Source of the DNA: a virus
Lineage: Duplodnaviria; Heunggongvirae; Uroviricota; Caudoviricetes
Reading direction: 5' to 3' (one strand)
Length of the DNA stretch: 6,030 nucleotides
IMG/VR virus record: IMGVR_UViG_3300029253_000209
Below are positions 5,117 to 5,676 of this stretch, piece by piece. The position numbers were made by a program, and so were the translations under genes. Numbering within the stretch: the first letter of the stretch is position 1; each line of letters opens with the position of its first letter. The notes under the pieces were generated by a model. It was given only the letters and a program-made list of their open reading frames with translations, was not told the origin of the DNA and did no database searches.

Positions 5117-5457
5117 ACACTTGCTCCTTTCAGTCCGAACTTAGCTTTGATTTCTGCGATCTTCGCCAGAGCCTGTGCACGATTTAGAGGTCTACCGCCC
5201 ATGACAGGAAGTTGTTTTACTGGTTCAGGTATCGCCTCACCACGGTTAATTCGCGCGGTCATACAGGACAGTTCATCGGCAGCCTTGCGCCGTAATTCCG
5301 CGTCAGTCAGCGCATTGGCCCGCATGTTCTGGTACAAGTTGGTAACCAACCAGTAATGCGCGTTCGATTTCCACGGATAAGACTCTGCATCCGGATACAG
5401 GCCACGCTTCCGGCAATACTCGTAAACCATATCAACCAGCTCGCTGACGTTTGGCAG
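5113..5457 (-). pseudogene. 3' fragment of a lambda P-like replication (helicase loader) gene; only about the C-terminal 115 codons are present
   Basis: Minus-strand translation ...LPNVSELVDMVYEYCRKRGLYPDAESYPWKSNAHYWLVTNLYQNMRANALTDAELRRKAADEL...IAEIKAKFGLKGASV matches the lambda P C-terminus as I recall it. Upstream of codon L at 5455-5457 the frame has no P similarity and hits a stop at 5548-5550. Confidence 0.75.
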
Positions 5458-5676
5458 CCAGAACGCGACATCACTCCGGTTAACGATGAAACCATGCAGG
5501 AGATTAACACTCTGCTGATCGCCCTGGATAAAACATGGGATGACGACTTATTGCCGCTCTGTTCCCAGATATTTCGCCGCGACATTCGCGCATCGTCAGA
5601 ACTGACACAGGCCGAAGCAGTGAAAGCTCTTGGATTCCTGAAACAGAAAGCCACTGAGCAGAAGGTGGCAGCATGA
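5455..5676 (+). pseudogene. 3' fragment of a lambda bet-like (Red-beta single-strand annealing protein) gene; about the C-terminal 73 codons
   Basis: [73 protein letters not shown] matches the lambda Bet C-terminus as I recall it. The upstream part of the listed ORF (5356-5454) is antisense to P' and has no Bet similarity. The stop overlaps the exo ATG (ATGA at 5673-5676). Confidence 0.75.

What the first reader, a model, noticed from the sequence alone, without database searches (positions are those of the whole stretch)
5440..5470. Deletion junction joining 3' fragments of P and bet, removing the whole immunity and replication region
On the minus strand, similarity to P begins at codon L 5455-5457; on the plus strand, similarity to bet begins at codon Q at the same three bases. 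The two truncated 5' ends therefore meet within a few nucleotides. In lambda these genes are divergent and separated by gam, kil, cIII, N, cI, cro, cII and O, so a single deletion with end-point microhomology explains the arrangement and accounts for the prophage being defective.
Basis: partly seen in the sequence, partly recalled or inferred. Interest (0 to 1): 0.5.

Follow-up and report, generated by a model that had tools for sequence, protein, structure and literature searches.

The report
Deletion scar in cryptic prophage DLP12
This is a real, base-precise deletion scar in the well-known defective E. coli prophage DLP12: the tail ends of the replication gene P and the recombination gene bet were joined, and the repressor and replication-origin genes between them were lost, which is an ordinary way for a prophage to decay.

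Summary
On the minus strand, window 5116-5457 encodes lambda P residues 120-233 (94% identical). On the plus strand, 5455-5673 encodes Bet residues 189-261 (99% identical). Both similarities stop abruptly at one shared trinucleotide, CAG (5455-5457).

The window is the DLP12 prophage at the argU tRNA site and is 99.6% identical to E. coli EC931. There, NCBI's pipeline already annotates both fragments as N-terminally truncated pseudogenes.

About 1000 of 5426 complete E. coli genomes, for example SE11, keep emrE-ren-P-O contiguous. In SE11 that stretch belongs to an undeleted relative at the same site, and the window lacks 5,472 nt of it: the P 5' part, O, a YdaT-domain gene, a cro-like gene, the repressor, kil, gam and the bet 5' part. 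The lambda equivalent is 7,695 nt.

- Three nucleotides of microhomology alone is weak evidence (chance about 0.05).
- A single step cannot be proven.
- IS1 and IS3 insertions also cripple the prophage.

This junction allele is rare (1 of 5426 genomes). K-12 and other lineages carry different, partly non-nested junctions, so the region was lost several times independently.

Side lead, unexplained: the same CAG and a T 26 nt downstream (5481) are recurrent breakpoints in bet of many unrelated lambdoid prophages.

The parts
4814..5116 (-). ren, intact (100 codons plus stop). It is the gene downstream of P in the rightward operon.
   Evidence: ORF. Annotated 'protein ren' in EC931. Lies within the lambda ren/P match, window 4841-5457 = lambda 40555-39939.
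5113..5457 (-). P' pseudogene: the 3' fragment of replication gene P (codons 120-233 plus stop). It has lost its promoter, its start codon and its first 119 codons.
   Evidence: 113/120 identical to lambda P residues 114-233; the similarity proper starts at L120. (Pfam PF06992 profile positions 84-162 only). (PGAP: 'replication protein P, incomplete, missing N-terminus').
5455..5457 (.). The junction: trinucleotide CAG, present at both deletion end points in lambda and in SE11. One copy is kept.
   Evidence: three-way alignments. The two BLAST alignments overlap by 3 nt.
5455..5676 (+). bet' pseudogene: the 3' fragment of bet (codons 189-261 plus stop). It codes for the end of the flexible linker plus the whole three-helix C-terminal domain that binds Exo and SSB. 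The annealase domain is absent.
   Evidence: 72/73 identical to Bet 189-261. (no RecT/PF03837 match). Domain limits from PMC6393309. (PGAP: 'Bet, incomplete, missing N-terminus').
5673..5956 (+). exo' fragment: the first 94 codons of lambda-type exonuclease, cut off by an IS1 insertion.
   Evidence: the match to lambda exo ends at 5956. (YqaJ profile positions 2-69 of 150). (in EC931 the rest of exo resumes after the IS1).
5957..6030 (.). Terminal 74 nt of an IS1 element inserted in exo.
   Evidence: 100% identical to the IS1 copy in L002. (IS1A transposase annotated here in EC931).
5356..5676 (+). Chimeric ORF of 106 codons created by the junction: 33 codons read from the antisense strand of P', fused in frame to Bet 189-261. 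There is no evidence that it is expressed.
   Evidence: ORF. (the near-identical protein P0015 is called in public assemblies). (no promoter-like site in 5050-5750).
5476..5482 (.). CCGGTTA. The T at 5481 is a recurrent breakpoint in bet of other lambdoid prophages. It is intact in this window.

Best explanation
The window is part of a DLP12-family cryptic lambdoid prophage integrated at the argU tRNA gene of E. coli. Its ancestor resembled the prophage still present at that site in E. coli SE11: int ... exo-bet-gam-kil transcribed one way, and cro-like, YdaT, O, P, ren, emrE ... transcribed the other way, with the repressor between them.

An illegitimate, homology-poor recombination event between a CAG in P (codon 119/120) and a CAG in bet (codon 189) removed about 5.5 kb. 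One copy of the CAG was kept. The event was most likely a replication template switch or a microhomology-mediated end joining.

The deletion removed both early promoters and operators, the repressor, the cro-like and YdaT-domain genes, the replication initiator O (which carries the origin in lambda), the N-terminal half of P, kil, gam and the annealase domain of Bet. The prophage can therefore no longer replicate, be induced or kill the host. The two headless gene tails now point away from each other.

Shown here: the junction to the base, the missing interval, and the identity of the flanks.
Inferred: the molecular mechanism, that it was a single step, and that loss of kil and replication functions was the selective advantage.
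For: Junction mapped against lambda and against an undeleted relative at the same locus.

The locus is identified as DLP12 at argU: the window is 99.6% identical to EC931, which has intD, tRNA-Arg and fimZ next to the element. It is 99% identical to K-12 DLP12 over ren to ybcN.

The same junction is present in a finished genome and in independent assemblies, so it is not an assembly artefact.

emrE-ren-P-O is contiguous in 1002 of 5426 complete genomes, so undeleted ancestors are common.

Three other independent junctions use the same CAG in bet: with gam in L113, with bet codon 31 in L115/L116, and as a 36-nt deletion in L124.
Against: Three nucleotides of microhomology is expected by chance in about 5% of junctions.

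The true ancestor of this lineage is not in hand. SE11 is only about 95-96% identical on the P side, so the exact ancestral bases at the end points are inferred.

A two-step history cannot be excluded, for example an earlier gam|bet189 junction as in L113, followed by a second deletion ending on the same CAG.

Nothing here tests the enzymology.
Confidence: 0.88

Rival explanations
1. The arrangement arose in two or more successive deletions rather than one. For example, a first deletion inside the gam-bet region ended at the bet CAG, as in allele L113. A later deletion from P then ended on the same CAG.
For: L113 is a DLP12-like prophage with gam joined to bet at exactly the same bet nucleotide. 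Its bet'-exo flank is 99.4% identical to the window's relative EC931. L124 shows that a junction region can be hit a second time, again at this CAG.
Against: This route needs two events where one suffices. No intermediate with the window's own P-side haplotype was found. The CAG site is recurrent in unrelated prophages, so a shared end point does not imply shared descent.
Confidence: 0.2
2. The junction was made by illegitimate recombination between two different lambdoid genomes, either a resident prophage and a superinfecting phage or two prophages. It would then not be an intramolecular deletion of one prophage.
For: The two flanks differ in their distance from SE11 (95.7% on the P side, 98.4% on the bet side) and from lambda (93% versus 97%). 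Lambdoid prophages exchange modules freely (PMC3945230).
Against: The order and orientation of both flanks are exactly those expected from a simple deletion of the SE11-type prophage at the same att site. Mosaic divergence along lambdoid genomes is normal and does not need a second genome at the junction.
Confidence: 0.07
3. There is no deletion: the flanking sequence is a diverged but contiguous gene, or the junction is an assembly artefact.
For: None found.
Against: Identity drops from 95-100% to 24-32% within one codon on both sides. The two reading frames lie on opposite strands. An identical junction is present in the complete genome of EC931. The chimeric ORF is present in other assemblies.
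Confidence: 0.01

Closest known systems
DLP12 of E. coli K-12 MG1655: the exoD'/peaD' pseudogene junction (b0539/b4508)
   Same: Same prophage family, same argU site, same ren-emrE-ybcK-ybcL-ybcM-ybcN backbone (99% identical). The immunity and replication region is also missing, and P is also reduced to a C-terminal pseudogene.
   Different: K-12's end points are lambda 31627 (inside exo) and 39972 (33 nt further into P). Bet is therefore gone completely, and the K-12 deletion encloses the window's deletion. K-12 also has IS3 in ren and a second 1.36-kb deletion next to xis. The K-12 junction is in about 306 of 5426 genomes; the window's is in 1.
Undeleted DLP12-type prophage at argU, for example E. 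coli SE11 (NC_011415, 605.8-633.6 kb)
   Same: Same integration site, the same int...exo-bet arm and the same P-ren-emrE-ybcK arm (95.7% and 98.4% identical).
   Different: SE11 keeps full-length P, O, a YdaT-domain gene, a cro-like gene, an XRE repressor, kil, gam and full-length bet, plus late genes (terminase, portal). It carries different cargo between ybcK and ybcN: a P22AR-domain gene instead of ybcL-ybcM.
DLP12 'type B' junction (E. coli E200086 and 6 other complete genomes)
   Same: Also a P'|bet' tail-to-tail junction in DLP12 at argU.
   Different: Its end points are lambda 39679 and 32220. It keeps 260 nt more of P and 26 nt less of bet, so neither allele can be derived from the other by further deletion. 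The two events were independent.
Short-homology-dependent illegitimate recombination and replication-slippage deletions in E. coli and lambda (the classical lambda-bio/Spi- assay literature; from my own knowledge, not read here)
   Same: Deletion end points share a few nucleotides, and no longer homology is present.
   Different: Only the product is seen here. The dependence on particular enzymes, which defines those pathways, cannot be tested from sequence.

Membership tests
DLP12-family cryptic lambdoid prophage of E. coli | Integrated at the argU tRNA-Arg gene, next to intD and fimZ | tested here: met
   This is not visible inside the 6-kb window itself. The window is 99.6% identical over its full length to EC931, where intD, tRNA-Arg and fimZ lie about 3-4.5 kb beyond the window's right-hand end.
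DLP12-family cryptic lambdoid prophage of E. coli | Characteristic backbone ren-emrE-(ylcJ)-ybcK-ybcL-ybcM-(ylcH)-ybcN | tested here: met
   ORFs. Window 122-5027 is 99.0% identical to K-12 DLP12.
Lambda replication protein P (Pfam PF06992) | Full-length match to the family profile with an intact reading frame and start codon | tested here: not met
   Only profile positions 84-162 of 162 are matched, corresponding to residues 120-233 of 233. It is a pseudogene fragment of a family member, not a functional member.
Bet / RecT single-strand annealing proteins (Pfam PF03837) | Presence of the N-terminal annealase domain | tested here: not met
   No Pfam hit for the 73-residue fragment. It equals Bet 189-261, that is, the end of the linker plus the C-terminal domain only.
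Microhomology-associated deletion junction | Abrupt loss of similarity on both sides at one point, relative to an undeleted relative | tested here: met
Microhomology-associated deletion junction | Nucleotides shared by the two parental end points, more than chance would give | tested here: inconclusive
   Three nucleotides (CAG) are shared. The probability of 3 or more by chance is 0.05. Recurrent use of the same CAG in three other junctions argues that it matters.
Microhomology-associated deletion junction | Produced in a single event by a defined pathway (slippage, MMEJ, topoisomerase) | not testable with these tools
   Only the end product is available.

The most novel reading that the evidence does not exclude
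The window's junction lies on one of two nucleotide-precise, recurrent breakpoints in the bet gene of lambdoid prophages. These are the CAG of codon 189 (window 5455-5457) and, much more strongly, the T of GGT-T|AAC at codons 196/197 (window 5481).

At the second point, at least 16 different partner sequences are joined to the same bet nucleotide in unrelated prophages at several att sites. Partners include P, O, NinG, Q, the lysozyme gene, three positions in gam or bet itself, a DUF2528 gene and others. Microhomology is only 0-3 nt, and at least one junction has the opposite polarity.

The two points are the two feet of a short inverted repeat (GCCGGA-N12-TCCGGT) that codes for the end of the flexible linker just before the Exo-binding C-terminal domain of Bet.

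The reading not excluded is a site- or structure-specific DNA break or replication stall in bet that repeatedly seeds one-sided deletions. These would decapitate Bet and often take out the whole immunity region, which would make this a built-in weak point driving prophage domestication.
Probability: 0.45. Interest if true: 0.55.

Novelty: already known. Interest (0 to 1): 0.2.

Why it matters
The finding itself documents one more allele of a textbook process: a cryptic prophage losing its immunity and replication module. It has some use for strain typing and for reconstructing DLP12 history. The data show at least three independent, non-nested losses of this region from a prophage that is still undeleted across emrE-ren-P-O in about a fifth of complete E. 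coli genomes.

The only part that could matter more broadly is the side observation that deletion end points in bet pile up on two exact nucleotides across many prophages. If that reflects a mechanism rather than selection or sampling, it would be a natural, sequence-defined hot spot of illegitimate recombination that could be tested directly in lambda.

Tried and rejected
1. Source of the window. An exact-pattern scan of genome contigs for the junction found nothing. A second scan, for junctions at the hot T (pattern VTAACG...), also found nothing there. The window's source genome is therefore not in that collection. This has no effect on the conclusions.

2. Promoter and terminator scan of 5050-5750: none found. 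There is no indication that the junction created an expression signal.

3. Repeats and secondary structure around the junction in the window allele: nothing beyond chance (z = 0.07).

4. The inverted repeat in the lambda-type allele folds at -5.4 kcal/mol, but z is only -0.5. It is a geometric coincidence with the two breakpoints, not statistical evidence.

5. An IS element or other insertion sitting at the hot T, as a source of one-sided deletions. Three left-anchored pattern scans of viral contigs found only synonymous SNPs and one chance hit.

6. Control anchors at two other bet positions, one with the same T|TAAC motif, gave no junctions. The numbers are small, however.

7. An unbiased sample of 80 exo-bearing viral loci: 75 had intact bet and only 1 was truncated. 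This is too few to give a breakpoint distribution.

8. The protein-database survey returned no hit longer than about 170 residues, which suggests hits are limited relative to the query length. It is therefore biased towards short chimeric ORFs and cannot give absolute frequencies.

9. I compared the site from memory with Ter, hix/gix, att core, integron core, type III restriction spacing, topoisomerase IA (C at -4) and rolling-circle nick sites. None fitted convincingly. These comparisons are recollections, not tests.

10. Literature. No paper in the held library describes the P/bet junction or a bet breakpoint hot spot. Lindsey et al. 1989, the original DLP12 paper, is not held.

Full report
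**What the window is.** The ORF list and BLAST against annotated genomes place the whole 6,030-nt window in the cryptic lambdoid prophage DLP12.
- It is 99.6% identical over its full length to E. coli EC931. In EC931 the element lies between a porin gene and intD/tRNA-Arg(argU)/fimZ.
- It is 99.0% identical to K-12 MG1655 DLP12 from ybcN to ren.
- On the window's plus strand the order is: IS3 end (1-123), ybcN, ybcM, ybcL, ybcK, emrE and ren (all on the minus strand), then the feature in question, then an exo fragment cut by IS1 at 5956/5957.

**Check of the observation.**
- Against lambda, window 4841-5457 aligns with 40555-39939 (ren and the 3' part of P, 93%). Window 5455-5956 aligns with 32246-31745 (the 3' part of bet and the 5' part of exo, 97%).
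- The two alignments share exactly three bases, CAG at 5455-5457. A three-way alignment shows identity collapsing to chance immediately beyond the junction on both sides.
- In protein terms, the minus strand encodes P residues 120-233 and the plus strand encodes Bet residues 189-261, 72 of 73 identical.
- Pfam sees only the C-terminal half of the P profile and no RecT domain in the bet piece.
- In phage genomes the bet/exo match starts at the same base, window 5455. More than 2,700 E. coli genomes have a bet that is 100% identical to the window from 5455 onward.

**Comparison with an undeleted relative.** I built a query of emrE-ren-P' extended with the missing part of P and the end of O.
- It is contiguous in 1002 of 5426 complete E. 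coli genomes.
- In E. coli SE11 the prophage at argU reads: intD ... exo, bet (full), gam, kil, two small ORFs, an XRE-type repressor, a cro-like HTH gene, a YdaT-domain gene, O, P (full), ren, emrE, ybcK ... quuD, porin, lysis genes, nohD, terminase, portal.
- Window 2576-5457 matches it at 95.7% and window 5455-5956 at 98.4%, with 5,472 nt of SE11 absent in between.
- The same CAG is present at both SE11 end points. Identity in the 150 nt past the junction is 24% and 32%.
- The lambda-equivalent gap is 7,695 nt, lambda 32247-39941.
- The immunity genes lost were of the SE11 type, not lambda's N/cI/cII set.

**How it most likely arose, and what it did.**
- The end points share only CAG. By itself that is weak evidence, since 3 or more shared bases arise by chance with P = 0.05.
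- The same CAG in bet is the end point of three other independent junctions:
  - with gam in L113 (CAGC shared);
  - with bet codon 31 in L115/L116;
  - in a 36-nt secondary deletion in L124.
- Microhomology-guided illegitimate recombination (template switching or end joining) is the best-supported mechanism. The enzymology is inferred, not shown.
- The deletion removed the repressor and the cro-like gene, with the early promoters and operators that lie around them in lambda, and also O, which in lambda carries the origin. It also removed half of P, kil, gam and the annealase domain of Bet. Each of these losses is by itself enough to make the prophage non-inducible and non-replicating.
- No promoter-like site lies at the junction.
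- The 106-codon chimeric ORF 5356-5676 is called in public assemblies (P0015). There is no evidence that it is expressed.
- IS1 in exo and the IS3 copy between ninE and ybcN (whose end is at window 1-123) are additional lesions.

**Is it known?**
- DLP12 is a classic cryptic prophage (PMC6379469, PMC3945230).
- K-12's annotation already lists exoD and peaD pseudogenes.
- NCBI's pipeline annotates the EC931 junction as two N-terminally truncated pseudogenes overlapping by 3 nt.
- The kind of feature is known and ordinary.

**Rarity of this allele and the other DLP12 alleles.** This particular allele is rare: the 60-nt junction sequence is found in 1 of 5426 complete genomes. DLP12 carries at least five different junction alleles.

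| Allele | Junction | Found in |
|---|---|---|
| A | lambda 32246 joined to 39939 | this window and EC931 |
| B | lambda 32220 joined to 39679 | 7 genomes |
| C | K-12: lambda 31627 joined to 39972 | about 306 genomes |
| D | L113: nin region joined to gam, plus gam joined to bet codon 189 | L113/L114 |
| E | P0072: the ren/P end joined to bet codon 46 | protein P0072 |

A and B are mutually non-nested, and so is D. The region was therefore lost at least three times independently from undeleted ancestors. C encloses A and could derive from it or arise directly.

**Side observation (unexplained).** While comparing alleles I found that the bet end point of allele B, ...CTCCGGT-T|AACGATG (the T at window position 5481), recurs exactly in unrelated prophages.
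- At DNA level, 15 different left-hand partners are joined to this same nucleotide:
  - P (L002);
  - O (L110; recognised);
  - NinG (L005, at the ybhC site);
  - Q (L007);
  - the lysozyme gene (L006);
  - gam at two positions (L013, L014);
  - bet codons 68 and 84 (L012, L117);
  - a DUF2528 gene (L108);
  - five others.
- A further partner, bet codon 74, is seen at protein level (P0027).
- One junction of opposite polarity keeps bet up to that T (L122).
- Where the partner's native sequence could be checked, it also has T at this position in 7 of 8 cases. Total microhomology is 0-3 nt.
- Among chimeric ORFs that end in the Bet C-terminal domain, 11 of 20 distinct junctions with a break in codons 178-215 fall at codon 197 and 3 fall at codon 189. 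Chance probability for the pile-up at 197 is below 1e-10.
- Control patterns at two other bet positions found no junctions.
- No IS element or insertion occupies the site in viral contigs.
- The two recurrent points are the two feet of an inverted repeat, GCCGGA-N12-TCCGGT, in the lambda-type allele. The predicted hairpin is weak and not better than shuffled sequence, and the window's own allele (CCAG) lacks it.
- The segment codes for the end of the flexible linker (residues 178-194) just before the three-helix Exo- and SSB-binding domain that starts at T195 (PMC6393309). Every such deletion therefore keeps that domain together with exo.
- I cannot decide between three explanations:
  - a cis-acting break or stall site;
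  - selection for keeping the C-terminal domain, which would not explain single-base precision;
  - sampling bias of the ORF-based survey.

**Verdict.** The feature is an ordinary, already-annotated deletion scar in a well-known cryptic prophage, present here as a rare allele. Interest is low. The recurrent bet breakpoints are the only element that might repay further work.

Noticed in passing
window 5476-5482 (T at 5481); loci L002, L005-L007, L012-L014, L108, L110, L112, L117-L122: There is an exact recurrent breakpoint in bet (..CCGGT-T|AACGATG). At least 16 different partner sequences are joined to the same nucleotide in unrelated lambdoid prophages, with 0-3 nt of microhomology, and one junction has the opposite polarity. 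The cause is unknown.
   Followed up: partly
window 5455-5457; L113 3121-3124, L115/L116 about 3097, L124 about 4200: The CAG used by the window's junction is also the bet end point of three other independent deletions. Their partners are gam, bet codon 31, and a 36-nt secondary deletion.
   Followed up: partly
L125 (E. coli SE11, NC_011415 605776-633602); An apparently far more complete DLP12-type prophage is present at argU in SE11, with repressor, O, P, bet, gam, terminase and portal. emrE-ren-P-O is contiguous in 1002 of 5426 complete E. coli genomes. K-12's DLP12 is therefore a minority, heavily decayed allele of a prophage that retains this region in many strains.
   Followed up: partly
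L001, L002, L004, L113, protein P0072: DLP12 has at least five different deletion junctions in the P-bet-exo region. At least three of them are mutually non-nested, so the immunity region was lost repeatedly and independently.
   Followed up: partly
window 5957-6030: The end of an IS1 element is inserted in exo after codon 94. In EC931 the rest of exo continues on the other side of the IS1.
   Followed up: partly
window 1-123: This is the terminal 123 nt of an IS3 element abutting ybcN. In EC931 the IS3 sits between ninE and ybcN, whereas in K-12 an IS3 copy sits in ren instead.
   Followed up: partly
window 4441-4800 (minus strand): emrE is frameshifted after ...LLSWGFF, so the C-terminal third of the efflux pump is replaced by unrelated residues. 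EC931's annotation also marks it 'frameshifted'.
   Followed up: no
window 764-2575 (ybcM, ybcL) versus L002 and L125: The ybcL-ybcM cargo segment has no counterpart in the SE11 and E200086 alleles. Those carry a P22AR-domain gene and a hypothetical gene in its place, so this is a module swap inside the prophage.
   Followed up: no
window 3530-3539 and 4308-4322: There are two runs of N (masked bases). One is inside ybcK, which is why ybcK appears as two ORFs in the ORF list. The other is between ybcK and emrE.
   Followed up: no
proteins P0019, P0020 (Salmonella): These are RecT-family proteins with an unrelated N-terminal core. They become about 82% identical to Bet from about residue A186 onward. 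This looks like a natural mosaic joint at the linker, suggesting the Exo-binding C-terminal domain is exchanged as a module.
   Followed up: no
protein P0107: This Bet fragment has a 1-nt deletion in the TTAAC at the hot site (..ITPV then frameshifted). It could be a real slip or a sequencing error.
   Followed up: no
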